DNA from: a virus
IMG/VR virus record: IMGVR_UViG_3300050128_000053
Location: 24,866-88,865 of that record
Direction: 5' to 3' (one strand)
DNA: 64,000 bases
Under the pieces are notes generated by a model, which was given only the letters and a program-made list of their open reading frames with translations, was not told where the DNA came from and ran no database searches. Shown piece after piece: positions 59,841 to 63,916 of the stretch. The first letter of the stretch is position 1; the number at the start of each line of letters is the position of its first letter. The position numbers and the translations under genes were made by a program.

Positions 59841-60063
59841 CTGAAGACCTCCGGTCGTTGAAGAGAGAGCTGATGCGGTACTGCACCGGCCCCTTCTTCT
59901 GCGGATTAGCACCGAGAACGTGTTGGGGAGCAAGGGTGAGAAGGCCGCTTCTCCGCAGCTCTTGGTCGTACCGAGGCTCATCACCACTGGGGAAGTGCGT
60001 GAGGTACCCAGGATTATCACTGAGGTCTTTGGCGTACGAGTCTGGCTTCGGGACGTCAACCAT
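59830..60063 (-). CDS. Hypothetical protein
   Basis: Overlaps both neighbours in the operon. Confidence 0.5.
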   Translation of the reverse strand: MVDVPKPDSYAKDLSDNPGYLTHFPSGDEPRYDQELRRSGLLTLAPQHVLGANPQKKGPVQYRISSLFNDRRSSDGG

Positions 60064-61150
60064 TGGTCGCTCCACTCACGAAAGTCGACAACTTGTGGCC
60101 ACAGACGCCCTTCCCGTATTTACGGAGAGCACCGTTAGCCATCGTATCAGTCCCCTCGACCTGGAACATCTTCTTTGAGTTGTGCACAACAAATCCATTA
60201 GCCAAGAAGTTATGAGGCTCCGTAACCACCTCGATGTCATAAGTCATTTCAAATCCAAAATGAACAATCGAAAGTATTTTCTCACTGGTTACTTTGGCGA
60301 TTACCCTTGAAGGGTTTTCAAGACCATGTATGCGCCCGTGTTCCCGGTGCGTAATGACTTTTAGATTCGCAGGCTCATTGTTCGTGTGGTCTTCATCGAG
60401 GTGGTGCACGGTCCAAACGCTCGGGTCAATAAACCGCAGATTATCGGTCTCACCAATACGAATCATTTGAATAAAATCTTCGTAATCAAGACCATTTAGT
60501 GTAGCTTCTGCCACCAAACGATGTTGGTTAACCACAAACTTCTCACCTGTAGCCTTATTTGGCTTCCAGTAGTTGGCATAAGGGTGGTTTTTCATACCAA
60601 ATACTCTCTTGTATCGCAGATTGGGTTTCCACGGGGTTCCCGTTGCCTTCTCGCCCTGGACATGCACATGCCGACCGGCATCTAGATTGCCCAATACTGT
60701 CCAGCCAGAAGGGGTGGAAAATGGATGATCTGTTGTTGCACGAATAGAGCGCCCAGTCTCGGTAGTGATCACAAATGTCTCTTTGCGTCCACTCGACCAA
60801 GCACTACTCAGTTCGACAAGTCGAACAGCACCATCCCGAGCCTGTTGAACAAATGTAGGGATGTCCAAGTCCCAGGAACGCCCACTGCGACCATTGTTGA
60901 GGCCGTTGAAACGATGTACAACATCTCGAAGTTTCATTGGACTGCTCTTACCGCCCCGATTTACAATAATCAGGGCATCGCCCTGAAGACACTGACAACC
61001 GTGACAGTGTGCCTCGAGCAGCTCAACGGGGCCAGGGCCACTTCCAGCGCCCCCCAGCGTCGGCACAGCAGCCAGAGGCCCCGACGCCGCCGGATTGATC
61101 TTGATGGCCGCCAGGCCAAGTTGGTGCACCGCTGAGACCCCATCAGCCAT
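60056..61150 (-). CDS. DUF5679-like zinc-ribbon protein (93 aa after splicing) containing an intein
   Basis: Exteins join to EAHCHGCQ|SKKMFQVEGTDTMANGALRKYGKGVCGHKLSTFV. Confidence 0.75.
   Translation of the reverse strand: MADGVSAVHQLGLAAIKINPAASGPLAAVPTLGGAGSGPGPVELLEAHCHGCQCLQGDALIIVNRGGKSSPMKLRDVVHRFNGLNNGRSGRSWDLDIPTFVQQARDGAVRLVELSSAWSSGRKETFVITTETGRSIRATTDHPFSTPSGWTVLGNLDAGRHVHVQGEKATGTPWKPNLRYKRVFGMKNHPYANYWKPNKATGEKFVVNQHRLVAEATLNGLDYEDFIQMIRIGETDNLRFIDPSVWTVHHLDEDHTNNEPANLKVITHREHGRIHGLENPSRVIAKVTSEKILSIVHFGFEMTYDIEVVTEPHNFLANGFVVHNSKKMFQVEGTDTMANGALRKYGKGVCGHKLSTFVSGATNG
60179..60991 (-). mobile_element. Intein with HNH homing endonuclease (271 aa)
   Basis: CLQGDALI...IRATTDHPF...VHHLDEDHTNNEPANL...TYDIEV...HNFLANGFVVHN|S. 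Confidence 0.93.
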
Positions 61151-61185
61151 GTCATTGGCCGTGTAGAGCCGCTTCGGTTTCCGTC

Positions 61186-62100
61186 TCACGGCGCAGGAGG
61201 GGGATTGACCGATCCATCGTGAGCACCGCTTGTCCAAGCAGCCAGGGGTTCGGTGTCGCGCATCTCTCGCATCATGGCATTCCAGTGCGATGCACGGCCC
61301 GTCGGCTTGCCCGAGCCCGTCCCGTGGCCACCACTGGGGCTGTCGCCAGGGGTCGACCCGTCGATGAGTTGATCGGACTCGTTCTGTGGAGCAGCATTGC
61401 TGCCGCCCATAGCACGATCTCCACCGTCGAGCGCACTGGTGACATCGGTCTGATCAGCCCATAGGCACTGACGAGCCTCGGCAATGAGCCCGTCAGGGCC
61501 CTGCTGCCAAACAGCAGGCGTCCACGGCGTCTGTGGGACAGCATCGCCTGAGTACTGCTCAGTAGGAAGCATTACCTTCTCCGATCGTTGATCGGCTCGT
61601 GGTCGTGGAAATCGATCCCACAGTTGCGGCAGCGGTAATGATTTACTTGACCGAGAGTCCCAAGTGTTTGACCCCAGCCACCACATGCTGGACAATCTTC
61701 GCCGAGATCATCGGGATCGTAAGCCGTCACGTATCACGTTCCCACTCTTGGATCGGAGGATTGTCGTGCTTGCCGGCGGCCGCCGCCGCTGAAGCAAAAG
61801 CAGCATTGTTGAGCATCCGAGCCTCCTCTTGAAGCTGCTCGGGACTTTTGGTCCAGCACTGAGGACGCCAGGGTCCACCAGTCCCTTCGAAGGGGTAGTG
61901 CATGGCTCCTTCGCCCTGATCGATGTCTTCGTTGGGCATCATGGTCATGACTGTCTCCTCGATCCCTCGTCGAAGTGCTCTCGACGCGTCTTTGGTCCAT
62001 CGTAGTCTGTGAACGAGCGATTACAGCCGTCACTGTCTCGAGGCGGCTCGTCGTACCCGGGTTCCTGCCAGTTAACAGACCCACCAGTACCATCGGCCAT
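61186..62100 (-). CDS. Four small coupled genes (61186-61572, 61572-61730 Zn ribbon, 61727-61948, 61945-62100)
   Basis: TAATG/ATGA/GTGA overlaps; CPAC...CRNC in the 52-aa gene. Confidence 0.6.
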
Positions 62101-62642
62101 TAGCCCTGCACCGACATCTTGCGACGGGGCGGCATTCCATACGTGGGCCGCAAAAGAGCAAGTTGTGACGCCCTGTGTTGATCTATTGTCAGGACGGAAG
62201 TAGAACCGCGTGGGGCGAGCTTGCCCTCAACCGTCGGCGTCGGCTGGAAGAACTGCAAAGACGGTGCTGCACGAAGTCCGGTAGTCGCTTCGGCGACCAA
62301 ACCACGCAAGGGGTTCTGCTGTTCAGGCCAGAGGTAGTCCCCCGGGTCAATCCTCTCGCCGAGGTGTACTCCTCTTTGGTAACCACGCTGGTTGATACGG
62401 GACTTGAGGGAATCGAAGAGGCGGTCCCCGCGTCGACTTGTAATTGTCCCGGGTCAAAGGTAGCCATCGGGATAGCTGGCTTCTGGTGTCCTGTTGTACA
62501 TCATCCGCCGGGCATCCAACACTGATCTAACCCACGGTTGGGGAGGCATTGATCCAACAGTTGCGCTTGGATTCATTGCTCCTGGGGAACCAGGAACATA
62601 GGTCTGTGAAAACCCAACACCTCCAGTGTTACTTCCGGCCAC
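62100..62642 (-). CDS. Conserved phage protein interrupted by an in-frame TGA within a probable 6-nt insertion (62451-62456)
   Basis: One frame reads MAGSNT...YPDGYL*PGTITSRRGDRLFDSLKSRINQRGYQRGVHLGERIDPGDYLWP...; both halves are otherwise intact and the stop overlaps the next ATG. Confidence 0.75.
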
Positions 62643-63183
62643 TTGGCATCACCTCCTTCCGATTCCTCTCGACAGTGCGAACTCGGTGGCAGTTTGCACA
62701 AACCACATCGCACTTCATGATCTCTTCCAACAATGCAACCCAACCAAATGAGGCACCTGATCGGATGTCAGCAACCTTCAGCGTACCGGGCAAGTGGTCA
62801 AAGTCCAAAGCGGCCCAGTGCTCGTTGTATCCACAGTCGGCACAGCCCTTTTCTATTTTGTAGGCCCGAACCCAGGCTTTGCGCTGGGCTCCTGATTTCC
62901 CAGGAGTAGATGAAGCTCGACCCTGGACATGCGGCGTGCCATATTTGCGATTCAACTTGTAATGTCGTGAACAGAAGCCGCCTCTGGCTTCTCGCAATGG
63001 GCACTCTTCTACACCACATTTACGGTCACCAGGCTCCGCTACAACGGGCCGCTGTCGATCAGCTACGCACTCTTTGCACCAACTGGCATAACGGTTGGTC
63101 TTGTTGATCCAGGCGAAATCGTTCAACATTTTCAGCTCGCCACACTTGGTGCACTTCTTGCGCACTTTCACGATGATGGTCAT
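62629..63183 (-). CDS. Free-standing HNH endonuclease with zinc fingers
   Basis: CTKC..CKEC, C...C...CSRHY, CADCG...ALDFDH...KCDVVCANCHRVRT. Confidence 0.88.
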   Translation of the reverse strand: MTIIVKVRKKCTKCGELKMLNDFAWINKTNRYASWCKECVADRQRPVVAEPGDRKCGVEECPLREARGGFCSRHYKLNRKYGTPHVQGRASSTPGKSGAQRKAWVRAYKIEKGCADCGYNEHWAALDFDHLPGTLKVADIRSGASFGWVALLEEIMKCDVVCANCHRVRTVERNRKEVMPSGRK

Positions 63184-63533
63184 TCTTCAGTCCATTTATG
63201 CTTGCCGATTACACGGGCGCTCGTCGTTCGATAAGAGTGTTGTGCTGGATTGTCTCCAGAGACAAACGCCCTGTTGTAAAGGGCGTACTCCTGGTCTCTC
63301 TTCACCGGGCCAAGAGGTTGAACAGCATAATCGTGCTTACCGAACTGCTCAATGTGCGCTGGGTCTACATCAGGATGGCTGATATAGACGTGCTTCGGGT
63401 TATAGGTGCCAGGGTTATCAGGCCAACGATCCTTAATCCCTAACTCCGCTGCTGACTTAACGATGTCGCCAGGCCTCAGTTTTGCGTCGGTCGTATGGAT
63501 GAACTGTTGACCCAGGTGATCGCCGGCCGTCAC
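63180..63533 (-). CDS. Arr-like (rifampin ADP-ribosyltransferase fold) ADP-ribosyltransferase
   Basis: FIHTT.A.LRPGD, HVY, YAVQPLGP..RD and NP..HSYRT...RVIG parallel Arr motifs. Confidence 0.65.
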   Translation of the reverse strand: MTAGDHLGQQFIHTTDAKLRPGDIVKSAAELGIKDRWPDNPGTYNPKHVYISHPDVDPAHIEQFGKHDYAVQPLGPVKRDQEYALYNRAFVSGDNPAQHSYRTTSARVIGKHKWTEE

Positions 63534-63916
63534 AACTCACCACGCCTGCGCTGATGGCCCTCCACGAAGGCCTTTCCATCTTCGCTCAACGCTTCAGAGT
63601 GCTGCAGCGGTTTGCCGTACCGGGCCTGAGCGTGCTGATCTGCAAAATCAAACATGGCTGACGCCACGCCTTTTCGACGGTGTGGCGGCTTTACGAAGGC
63701 CTTGTAAACGGTTGGTTGATCGGGACTTCGGGCGGCGCCAATGTTGGTGTCGAAATAGCTGAGACTGGCGACAGGCGCTTTACTCAACTCACCACCGGGC
63801 TTCACCACGTGAGCGTGAATCAGGTTCCAACCTTCAGGTGGTTTGCGGATTTGGTACTGCTTACCGGTCGGTGCCGTGTAGAACTGCTCATTGGAGAGGT
63901 GGTCGGAAGCAGTCAT
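63530..63916 (-). CDS. GNAT-family acetyltransferase-like protein
   Basis: AFVKPPHRRKGVASAMF...HSEALSEDGKAF. Confidence 0.78.
   Translation of the reverse strand: MTASDHLSNEQFYTAPTGKQYQIRKPPEGWNLIHAHVVKPGGELSKAPVASLSYFDTNIGAARSPDQPTVYKAFVKPPHRRKGVASAMFDFADQHAQARYGKPLQHSEALSEDGKAFVEGHQRRRGEL

What the first reader, a model, noticed from the sequence alone, without database searches (positions are those of the whole stretch)
62100..63183. In-frame TGA-CCC insert in a conserved gene directly downstream of an HNH gene
A 180-codon frame has a single stop in YPDGYL*PGTITSRR, and both halves look intact. Removing 6 nt gives DGYLGTI, the motif as I recall it in related phage proteins. The HNH gene overlaps this gene's start, the same layout as HNH-portal. 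Stop readthrough (adding X-Pro) or a 6-nt hop are both possible.
Basis: partly seen in the sequence, partly recalled or inferred. Interest (0 to 1): 0.78.

Follow-up and report, generated by a model that had tools for sequence, protein, structure and literature searches.

The report
Homing-endonuclease cassette with recoded stop insert
A selfish HNH nuclease gene sits in front of a conserved phage gene whose most conserved motif carries a 6-base insert starting with a stop codon, apparently the nuclease's self-protection mark, and the ribosome probably has to hop over or read through it.

Summary
On the minus strand an HNH gene (62629-63183) overlaps by 14 nt the start of a 180-codon frame (62100-62642) holding one TGA (62454-62456). 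Every uninterrupted homolog reads YPDGYLG(T/S)I, so the window carries a 6-nt insert (TGA CCC) in the family's most conserved motif. Contigs from three other studies, one an RNA library, show it unchanged.

It is not a lone nonsense mutation. Of 107 family loci, all 19 with a related HNH directly upstream carry an indel inside the same 27-nt motif (1, 6, 8 or 10 nt, one sense +6). None of the 86 loci without that HNH does. On the tree the HNH state needs at least 7 changes. All 19 interrupted alleles whose end is in view keep a full downstream frame, under purifying selection (dN/dS 0.04-0.25).

The 1-nt alleles form a prfB-like +1 shift site (GGAG, 3 nt, CCC_TGA_C). The window's sister allele has CTT TGA CTC, a matched Leu/Leu stop-hop. 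The window has CTT TGA CCC, an imperfect landing codon.

Best reading: a homing-endonuclease cassette with a self-immunity insert, as in T4 MobA and the gene 60 gap, decoded by a stop-hop or UGA read-through. Translation was not tested, and this allele could be dead.

The parts
62629..63183 (-). Free-standing HNH homing-endonuclease gene, 184 aa. It has an N-terminal Cys-rich extension and an HNH core (DFDH ... CANCH).
   Evidence: ORF. phrog_2255 E 4.7e-32 and phrog_3106 E 1.6e-24. Relatives at 52-60% identity over the whole alignment (tblastn best segments 57-67%) lie directly upstream of the same target gene in L020, L092 and L093. H130, N164 and H166 are invariant. It is the only copy in the 88.9-kb contig.
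62629..62642 (-). 14-nt overlap between the end of the HNH gene and the GTG start of the target gene.
   Evidence: In 15 HNH-linked alleles the target start lies from 14 nt inside to 6 nt beyond the HNH stop.
62457..62642 (-). Target gene, part 1: 62 codons ending ...YPDGYL, with CTT as the last codon (the proposed take-off codon).
   Evidence: It aligns with the N-terminal part of uninterrupted homologs.
62442..62474 (-). The family's most conserved motif (YPDGYL..GTI), which is the inferred HNH recognition region and is interrupted here.
   Evidence: All 19 indels of HNH-linked alleles fall at three positions inside this stretch.
62451..62456 (-). The 6-nt insert TGA CCC (equally well placed as TTGACC, 62452-62457). 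TGA is at 62454-62456.
   Evidence: DNA alignment with L005. Absent from 86 uninterrupted loci. Present with 0 differences in contigs of three other studies.
62100..62450 (-). Target gene, part 2: 116 codons in the same frame (GTITSRR ... VQG) plus TAA.
   Evidence: It is 78% identical to the same part of sister allele L090 with saturated synonymous sites. The next in-frame start codon is only at 62309, so separate initiation would lose the conserved core.
62341..62350 (-). Second copy of the 10-mer TTGACCCGGG. The first copy, 62448-62457, spans the insert. It is a possible template of the insert.
   Evidence: only 2 matches in 64 kb, both in this gene, against 0.19 expected.

Best explanation
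The HNH gene and the 6-nt insert belong together as one mobile cassette.

1. The free-standing HNH homing endonuclease recognises the highly conserved DNA that encodes YPDGYLGTI in HNH-less relatives of this phage gene, whose function is unknown.
2. It cuts that DNA during mixed infection and is copied in next to the gene by repair.
3. Its own copy of the site is made uncuttable by a small insert, here TGA CCC between the Leu and Gly codons.
4. The motif cannot tolerate change in the protein, so the insert is placed where ribosomes can neutralise it. A ribosome pauses with peptidyl-tRNA-Leu on CUU and the weak stop UGA-C in the A site.
5. A fraction of ribosomes then either hop 6 nt and resume at GGG, restoring ...DGYLGTI..., or read UGA through, giving ...DGYL-X-P-GTI...
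6. The remaining ribosomes terminate after 62 residues.

Shown here: the insert, the strict HNH/indel linkage, the intact and selected downstream frames, and shift-prone sequence contexts in relatives. Inferred: cleavage of the uninterrupted site, protection by the insert, and any recoding in this particular allele.
For: 1. Insert relative to all uninterrupted homologs.

2. Linkage. There are 107 loci with the gene's core. All 19 with a related HNH ending 143-193 nt upstream of the motif carry an indel in the motif. 0 of 86 without it do. L089 and L090 are interrupted, but their upstream DNA is not on the contig.

3. Tree of the downstream part: the HNH state needs 10 changes, at least 7 on well-supported branches. 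6 of 6 independent pairs are concordant, sign test p = 0.031.

4. Insert types:
- 1 nt (CCC-T-GAC or CCT-T-GAC)
- 6 nt (TAGCTT; TGACTC; TGACCC)
- 8 nt
- 9 nt
- 10 nt
- one sense +6
In 20 of the 21 interrupted loci the upstream frame meets a stop at the insert: at its first codon in 19, and as the last sense-frame codon spanning its end in L121.

5. Of the 21 interrupted loci, the 19 whose downstream end is in view (two more run off their contigs short of the conserved C-terminal end) keep a downstream frame that reaches that conserved end.

6. dN/dS of that part among interrupted alleles is 0.04-0.25. This includes close pairs whose HNH genes diverged in step: L106/L109 have HNH dS 0.48 and target dS 0.57; L020/L095 have 0.61 and 0.76.

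7. The window is sister to L090 (support 96), which has the insert at the same place. The two differ at about 23% of bases, with no more-similar tract around the insert. The interrupted state is therefore old, and the downstream part stayed conserved.

8. Contexts fit known recoding sites.
- L090 has matched CUU/CUC around UGA, the synthetic 'stop-hop' design (passages of PMC5009743).
- The +1 alleles have GCG-GAG (GGAG) 3 nt before CCC_UGA_C in 7 of 8 distinct alleles, against 1 of 65 HNH-less alleles. This layout matches prfB as I recall it.

9. The protein database holds 9 diverged N-terminal fragments ending exactly at ...GYL or ...EYP. It also holds 14 C-terminal fragments starting at the first internal Met. 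Three of the 14 are the products of L089, L090 and L092.

10. Precedent: T4 MobA and the gene 60 gap protect against self-nicking (section 12 of preprint 10.1101/2022.08.31.505936).
Against: - No measurement of translation or of DNA cleavage exists for any member.
- In the window the landing codon is CCC, not CUN. By my own base-pairing reasoning tRNA-Leu would mismatch at the middle base, so a hop should be inefficient.
- There is no SD-like element before CUU in the window.
- There is no significant RNA structure (z -1.4).
- Read-through would put two extra residues into the most conserved motif. Against that objection, L094 carries a sense +6 two codons further on.
- Selection measured between alleles could partly predate the inserts if cassettes moved into diverged backgrounds. 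L145 and L146 show such mosaicism.
- HNH-linked loci include near-duplicates, giving about 15 distinct alleles.
- Four of the 86 HNH-less loci show less than 600 nt upstream of the motif.
- The target protein has no known function or confident fold, so essentiality is unknown.
Confidence: 0.6

Rival explanations
1. Dead gene. The insert is a repair scar or immunity mark that simply inactivates a dispensable gene. Only the 62-residue fragment is made, and the downstream frame looks intact because the event is recent in this lineage.
For: - UGA is a normal stop here: 32 of 60 long ORFs end in TGA.
- The landing codon CCC does not match CUU.
- No stimulatory structure or SD was seen.
- The 10-mer spanning the insert recurs 107 nt downstream, as expected for a templated repair insertion.
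- The function of the gene is unknown.
Against: - All 19 interrupted alleles whose end is in view, in at least 6 lineages, keep full downstream frames, with dN/dS of 0.04-0.25.
- The window and its sister L090 share the insert site yet differ at about 23% of bases, while the protein is 78% conserved.
- No frameshifted or otherwise decayed allele was seen among 107 loci.
- A quarter or so of the close clade's database entries appear interrupted, which is many for a null allele.
Confidence: 0.22
2. Split gene. The insert divides the protein into two polypeptides (62 aa and about 116 aa) that assemble, the second being made by re-initiation after the stop. This would resemble homing-endonuclease 'genes in pieces'.
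For: - Database protein P0042 (116 aa) starts with a start codon placed exactly before GTI. In that allele the second inserted codon is therefore ATG, GTG or TTG.
- Split genes made by MobA or MobE insertions are described in the preprint read.
Against: - In the window the codon after TGA is CCC, and the next in-frame start is 49 codons further on (62309), beyond the conserved core.
- L090, L020, L095 and the 1-nt alleles also lack a start codon at the junction.
- The 1-, 8- and 10-nt inserts change frame without creating a start.
Confidence: 0.08
3. Altered decoding of the stop codon as such: TGA reassigned, a phage suppressor tRNA, or selenocysteine.
For: TGA followed by C is a leaky context (recalled). 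The contig is only about 63% complete, so a tRNA gene could lie outside it.
Against: - No tRNA gene is present in the 88.9-kb contig.
- TGA ends 32 of 60 long ORFs.
- Relatives use TAG and TAA, and frame-changing inserts of 1, 8 and 10 nt, at the same motif. No stop-codon reassignment can explain these.
- There is no significant hairpin after the TGA.
Confidence: 0.04
4. Sequencing or assembly artefact.
For: The window is a metagenome-assembled contig.
Against: Contigs of three other studies cover the site with 0 differences. Diverged relatives carry inserts at the same motif.
Confidence: 0.01

Closest known systems
Phage T4 MobA homing endonuclease with the 50-nt translational bypass gap of gene 60 (Bonocora et al. 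2011, cited in the preprint; preprint 10.1101/2022.08.31.505936, outline, section 12 and passages read)
   Same: - A free-standing HNH-type endonuclease gene sits directly upstream of, and overlaps, the start of the gene it targets.
- A non-coding insert lies about 50-60 codons into that gene, inside a highly conserved stretch.
- A stop or hungry codon comes right after the take-off codon.
- The insert disrupts the nuclease's own site while the protein sequence is preserved by recoding.
- The cassette is scattered over the host-gene tree.
   Different: - The inserts here are 1-10 nt, not about 50 nt.
- No take-off hairpin or gap SD is evident.
- The target is an uncharacterised ~175-aa protein of actinophage-like viruses, not topoisomerase, and the gene is not split by the endonuclease.
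- Several different inserts and three insertion points occur within one motif.
- Recoding is not demonstrated.
Synthetic 'stop-hops' in E. coli: matched codons flanking a stop, 9 nt encoding one residue (Weiss et al. 1987, as described in PMC5009743; passages read)
   Same: L090 has CUU UGA CUC, exactly this design. The window has CUU UGA CCC at the same place.
   Different: Those were laboratory constructs. The review states that no natural in-frame stop-hop was known. The window's landing codon is mismatched.
prfB (RF2) programmed +1 frameshift, CUU_UGA_C with an SD-like element 3 nt upstream (recalled; CCC_UGA sites in Listeria phages and pheL from passages of PMC5009743)
   Same: The window and L090 carry the heptamer CUU_UGA_C. 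The 1-nt alleles carry GGAG-UAU-CCC_UGA_C with the same spacing.
   Different: In the window a +1 shift leads into a non-conserved frame: 28% identity to L090's, with openness not significant. A +1 shift therefore cannot restore the protein in this allele. It can only do so in the 1-nt alleles of relatives.

Membership tests
HNH homing endonuclease (free-standing) | HNH catalytic core (His ... Asn ... His with Cys pairs) | tested here: met
   phrog_2255 E 4.7e-32. Five relatives score E 1e-24 to 2e-32. H130, N164, H166 and the Cys pairs are invariant in the 3-way alignment. Pfam gives no hit above threshold and no PDB relative is found by sequence.
HNH homing endonuclease (free-standing) | Sporadic distribution: present next to the same gene in some genomes and absent from close relatives | tested here: met
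   19 of 105 loci with visible upstream DNA carry it. At least 7 to 10 changes are needed on the target-gene tree.
HNH homing endonuclease (free-standing) | Cleaves the endonuclease-less allele and is copied in by repair | not testable with these tools
   Indirect only. L145 and L146 are about 99% identical genomes with a 77-87% patch 65-300 nt downstream of the site. Synonymous divergence is lower between the HNH and the site than beyond it.
Homing endonuclease plus recoding-insert cassette (T4 MobA / gene 60 type) | Insert in the target's conserved site strictly linked to the endonuclease | tested here: met
   19 of 19 against 0 of 86. 6 of 6 independent pairs are concordant.
Homing endonuclease plus recoding-insert cassette (T4 MobA / gene 60 type) | Insert protects own DNA from the endonuclease | not testable with these tools
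   Inferred from the linkage. It needs a cleavage assay.
Homing endonuclease plus recoding-insert cassette (T4 MobA / gene 60 type) | Ribosomes bypass or shift over the insert to give the full-length protein | tested here: inconclusive
   For: intact downstream frames, dN/dS 0.04-0.25, and shift-prone contexts. Against, in the window: a mismatched landing codon and no stimulator. There are no protein data.
Homing endonuclease plus recoding-insert cassette (T4 MobA / gene 60 type) | Homology to MobA or to the 50-nt gap sequence | not tested
   The inserts are 1-10 nt, so they cannot be homologous to the gap. The HNH was not compared with MobA, because no MobA sequence was fetched.
Translational stop-hop | Take-off and landing codons readable by the same tRNA, flanking a stop | tested here: not met
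   Window: CTT / CCC. The feature is met in sister allele L090: CTT / CTC.

The most novel reading that the evidence does not exclude
A widespread, old family of HNH homing cassettes in actinophage-like viruses of peat, soil and fresh water makes itself immune by putting 1-10-nt inserts into the most conserved motif of its target gene. The host ribosome erases them, by a prfB-like +1 shift in some lineages and by natural in-frame stop-hops of 6-10 nt in others, including the window's lineage. That would be the second known endonuclease-plus-recoding cassette after T4 gene 60, and the first natural stop-hops.
Probability: 0.45. Interest if true: 0.9.

Novelty: new variant of a known kind. Interest (0 to 1): 0.8.

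Why it matters
The only known pairing of a homing endonuclease with translational recoding is T4 MobA with gene 60. The preprint read calls its bypass cassette unique. The 2016 review (passages) says no natural in-frame stop-hop is known.

The same logic appears here in miniature and in many versions on one target: one base, six, eight, nine and ten bases, and one translated insert. This gives a natural allelic series for asking what a ribosome needs in order to shift or hop. It also bears on how selfish nucleases escape their own cut when the target cannot change its protein sequence.

It matters for annotation too. Gene callers split these genes into fragments: 9 N-terminal and 14 C-terminal fragment clusters were found in the database.

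Tried and rejected
- **+1 frameshift product in the window.** The +1 frame after CTT_TGA_C is open for 86-88 codons in both the window and L090. Synonymous-codon permutation gives P = 0.07-0.5, and the two +1 translations are 28% identical. Rejected.
- **RNA structure around the site.** z-scores are -1.4 (window), -1.0 (L090), -0.6 (uninterrupted L087) and +1.9 (L119). No support.
- **Function of the target protein.**
  - Pfam, PHROGs and NCBIfam gave nothing.
  - The PDB profile search gave nothing useful (best E 0.8).
  - The AlphaFold2 model from a 31-sequence alignment had mean pLDDT 51.9 and pTM 0.18, so no fold search was made.
  - Atlas hits were at or below 0.80.
- **More 6-nt stop inserts after DGYL in IMG/VR.** The pattern scan gave 3 stretches, all unrelated chance matches.
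- **GTDB genomes.** One weak, irrelevant hit.
- **GenBank phages.** Only 6 records, all Streptomyces phages with an uninterrupted motif; the four fetched have no HNH upstream. Distant DNA search found only an HNH fragment in an Arthrobacter phage.
- **Earlier findings of this scan.** None.
- **Papers.** Five searches listed nothing on an endonuclease-linked frameshift or hop other than T4 gene 60. Supplements were not opened. Subscription journals are not covered.
- **Read laying.** No variant alleles appeared at 80% likeness. Parts of the stretch without cover (62593-62840 in most runs) say nothing.
- **Tree.** 3 of 107 loci with a downstream part under 80 residues were left out.
Full report
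**What is there**

The window is the last 64 kb of an 88.9-kb IMG/VR viral contig, estimated 63% complete. It has no tRNA genes.

On the minus strand a 184-aa HNH endonuclease gene lies at 62629-63183 (phrog_2255, E 4.7e-32). It overlaps by 14 nt the GTG start (62642) of a frame that runs to TAA at 62100-62102. That frame has:
- 62 codons ending ...YPDGYL (CTT);
- TGA at 62454-62456;
- CCC at 62451-62453;
- 116 further codons beginning GTITSRR.

Two open stretches around one stop are common in this genome. The case therefore rests on homology, not on openness.

**Homologs**

The read-through translation has no Pfam, PHROG or NCBIfam family. It does match 172-aa hypothetical proteins of six Streptomyces phage records: GiJojo, pSt2308, LuckySocke, Alone3 and two BRock entries. 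The four fetched were GiJojo gp168, LuckySocke gp177, BRock gp48 and the pSt2308 homolog. It also matches an IMG/VR relative at 73-74% identity.

All of these align on both sides of the stop and lack exactly two codons there. An alignment-seeded scan found 530 family stretches in IMG/VR, of which 80 were kept. The motif TAY CCN GAY GGN TAY CTN GGN ACN ATH is the most conserved part of the gene.

Contigs of three other studies, one of them an RNA library, cover the insert with 0 differences. The insert is therefore real, and it is not removed in that RNA-library contig. DNA carry-over in that library cannot be excluded.

**The insert is one of many, and always comes with the HNH**

- In the 80 IMG/VR loci, one (L020) had TAG CTT inserted four codons upstream, after YP.
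- The protein database holds 9 diverged fragments (63-81% identical) that end exactly at ...GYL or ...GFL (7) or ...EYP (2). A tenth begins inside an HNH C-terminus and runs on into the N-terminal part of the target gene.
- The metagenome scan gave 7 loci:
  - three uninterrupted;
  - L090 with CTT TGA CTC;
  - L089 with a 9-nt insert starting TAA;
  - L092 and L093 with an 8-nt insert starting TAG, which changes frame.
- tblastn with the window's HNH hit only L020, L092 and L093, directly upstream of the gene.
- An HNH-seeded scan kept 80 of 159 relatives. It gave 17 loci with the target gene just downstream.
  - Sixteen are interrupted by a stop or frame change: TAGCTT (L095), a 10-nt insert (L121), or a single T that creates CCC_TGA_C or CCT_TGA_C (12 loci, 8 distinct). 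One of these loci, L098, is the same place as L020.
  - L094 instead has a translated +6 two codons further on.

Tally over the 107 loci that hold the gene's core:
- HNH-linked: 19, with 19 of 19 carrying an indel in the motif. These are about 15 distinct alleles.
- HNH-less: 86, with 0 of 86 interrupted.
- Undecidable: 2 (L089 and L090, interrupted, with upstream DNA off the contig).

Four of the 86 HNH-less loci show less than 600 nt upstream of the motif. On a tree of the downstream part (104 rows), the HNH state needs 10 changes, at least 7 on supported branches. 6 of 6 independent pairs are concordant, p = 0.031.

The HNH stop lies 143-193 nt before the motif in all 19. The target start lies from 14 nt inside to 6 nt beyond the HNH stop.

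**Are the interrupted genes alive?**

- The 19 interrupted loci whose end is in view keep a downstream frame that runs to the family's conserved C-terminal end. L093 and L142 run off their contigs before the frame ends; L149 holds only 25 codons of it.
- dN/dS of that part between interrupted alleles is 0.04-0.25. Examples: L106/L109 0.037 at dS 0.57; L119/L145 0.040; L020/L095 0.25.
- HNH genes diverge in step with the target. L106/L109 have HNH dS 0.48 and L020/L095 have 0.61. The interrupted state is therefore not a recent accident in these lineages.
- The window is sister to L090 (support 96), which has the insert at the same point. The two differ at about 23% of bases, with no more-similar tract around the insert. 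The downstream protein is 78% identical with saturated synonymous sites.
- Caveat: cassettes also move. L145 and L146 are about 99% identical genomes with identical HNH genes, but they have a 77-87% patch 65-300 nt beyond the site. Some divergence may therefore predate a given insert.
- In the close clade the database also holds 14 clusters of 104-106-aa C-terminal fragments that all start at the first internal Met. I fetched 23 of the 77 hits. Three of the 14 are the products of L089, L090 and L092.

**How the inserts could be decoded**

- *1-nt alleles.* These read GCG GAG TAT CCC T GAC. The stop UGA-C follows CCC, tRNA-Pro can re-pair on CCU, and GGAG lies 3 nt before the shift codon.
  - GCG-GAG occurs in 7 of 8 distinct such alleles, against 1 of 65 HNH-less alleles.
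  - CCC_UGA is a documented +1 site in Listeria phages and pheL (passages of PMC5009743).
  - The SD spacing matches prfB as I recall it.
  - A +1 shift restores ...EYPDGYLGTI... exactly.
- *6-, 8- and 10-nt inserts after Pro.* The codon just before the resume codon GAY is CTT or CCT. By my own pairing reasoning, tRNA-Pro could re-pair there with G-U pairs.
- *L090.* It has CUU UGA CUC, the matched-codon stop-hop known only from constructs. The review says no natural case is known.
- *The window.* It has CUU UGA CCC: the same take-off codon and stop, but a landing codon with a middle-base mismatch. A hop should be weak here. UGA-C read-through would add two residues, and L094 shows that a +6 close by can be carried as sense.
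- *Rejected or unsupported.* A +1 shift at CUU_UGA_C leads into a frame that is open for 86-88 codons but neither conserved nor significantly open. No RNA structure stands out.

TGA is the commonest genuine stop in the contig, ending 32 of 60 long ORFs. Relatives use TAG, TAA and frame-changing inserts. Code change, suppressor tRNA or selenocysteine therefore cannot explain the family.

**Origin of the window's insert**

The 10-mer TTGACCCGGG that spans the insert occurs only once more in 64 kb. That copy lies 107 nt downstream in the same gene, where it encodes IDPG (0.19 expected). This fits a templated repair insertion at a break, but it is a single observation. L090 has no such second copy.

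**Comparison with what is known**

The closest system is T4 MobA with the 50-nt gap of gene 60. There, an HNH-type endonuclease gene overlaps the start of the downstream gene. A non-coding insert sits in a highly conserved stretch and blocks self-nicking. Ribosomal bypass restores the protein.

The differences here:
- The inserts are 1-10 nt.
- There are several insert types and three positions within one motif.
- The target has no known function.
- The gene is not split.
- There is no experimental evidence.

I therefore file it as a new variant of a known kind. Five literature searches listed nothing similar. The library does not cover most subscription journals.

**Verdict**

- The HNH link and the insert character are strongly supported.
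- Recoding is well supported for the family, especially the +1 alleles, but unproven.
- For the window's own allele the mode of decoding, and even whether it is still decoded, stays open.

My estimates:

| Reading | Estimate |
|---|---|
| Cassette with recoding | 0.60 |
| Dead allele | 0.22 |
| Split gene | 0.08 |
| Altered stop decoding | 0.04 |
| Artefact | 0.01 |

Noticed in passing
window 60056-61237 (-): A 393-aa ORF contains an intein (Pfam Intein_splicing E 1.2e-10) with an HNH_3 domain (E 1.2e-5). It appears to be inserted after a His-Cys-x-x-Cys motif of a small zinc-ribbon-like protein. The relative in L005 (ORF 2309-2758) appears to have the flanking parts without the intein. This is a second selfish nuclease element within 2 kb of the finding.
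   Followed up: partly
L008 1944-2501 and L007 1-294: Two uninterrupted close relatives carry a different endonuclease-like ORF in the same slot, ending at the start of the target gene. L008's ORF scores phrog_5046 E 2e-16 and Pfam LAGLIDADG_1 E 8e-4, below threshold; L007's matching ORF had no Pfam hit and was linked to it by eye only. L008's N-terminal zinc ribbon hits the same PHROGs as the window HNH's N-terminus. The slot seems to be a hotspot for unrelated nuclease genes, and the indel goes only with the phrog_2255 HNH.
   Followed up: partly
L145 vs L146, about 3000-3240 of L146: These are nearly identical genomes (98-100%) with identical HNH genes. They have a 77-87% identity patch inside the target gene, 65-300 nt downstream of the insert. 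It looks like a gene-conversion tract next to the presumed cut site.
   Followed up: partly
database proteins P0042 and P0011: P0042 (116 aa, on 11 contigs) starts with a start codon immediately before GTI. One allele therefore has stop plus start as its insert, a possible true split gene. P0011 starts inside an HNH C-terminus, runs into the target's N-terminal part, and stops early at ...SVLDGG, hinting at a further interruption point.
   Followed up: no
window 62341-62350 and 62448-62457 (-): TTGACCCGGG occurs twice in 64 kb, both times in this gene. One copy spans the insert.
   Followed up: partly
window 63180-63916 (-): There are two small genes upstream of the HNH. One is a 128-aa protein with weak GNAT acetyltransferase hits (E 2e-4, below threshold). 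The other is a 117-aa protein with a weak hit to rifampin ADP-ribosyltransferase Arr (E 0.013, below threshold).
   Followed up: no
L097 (end of the contig that also holds L005/L007): The 101-kb relative whose target gene is uninterrupted carries a related HNH (52% identity) elsewhere on the contig, about 1.2 kb from its other end. What it sits next to was not examined.
   Followed up: no
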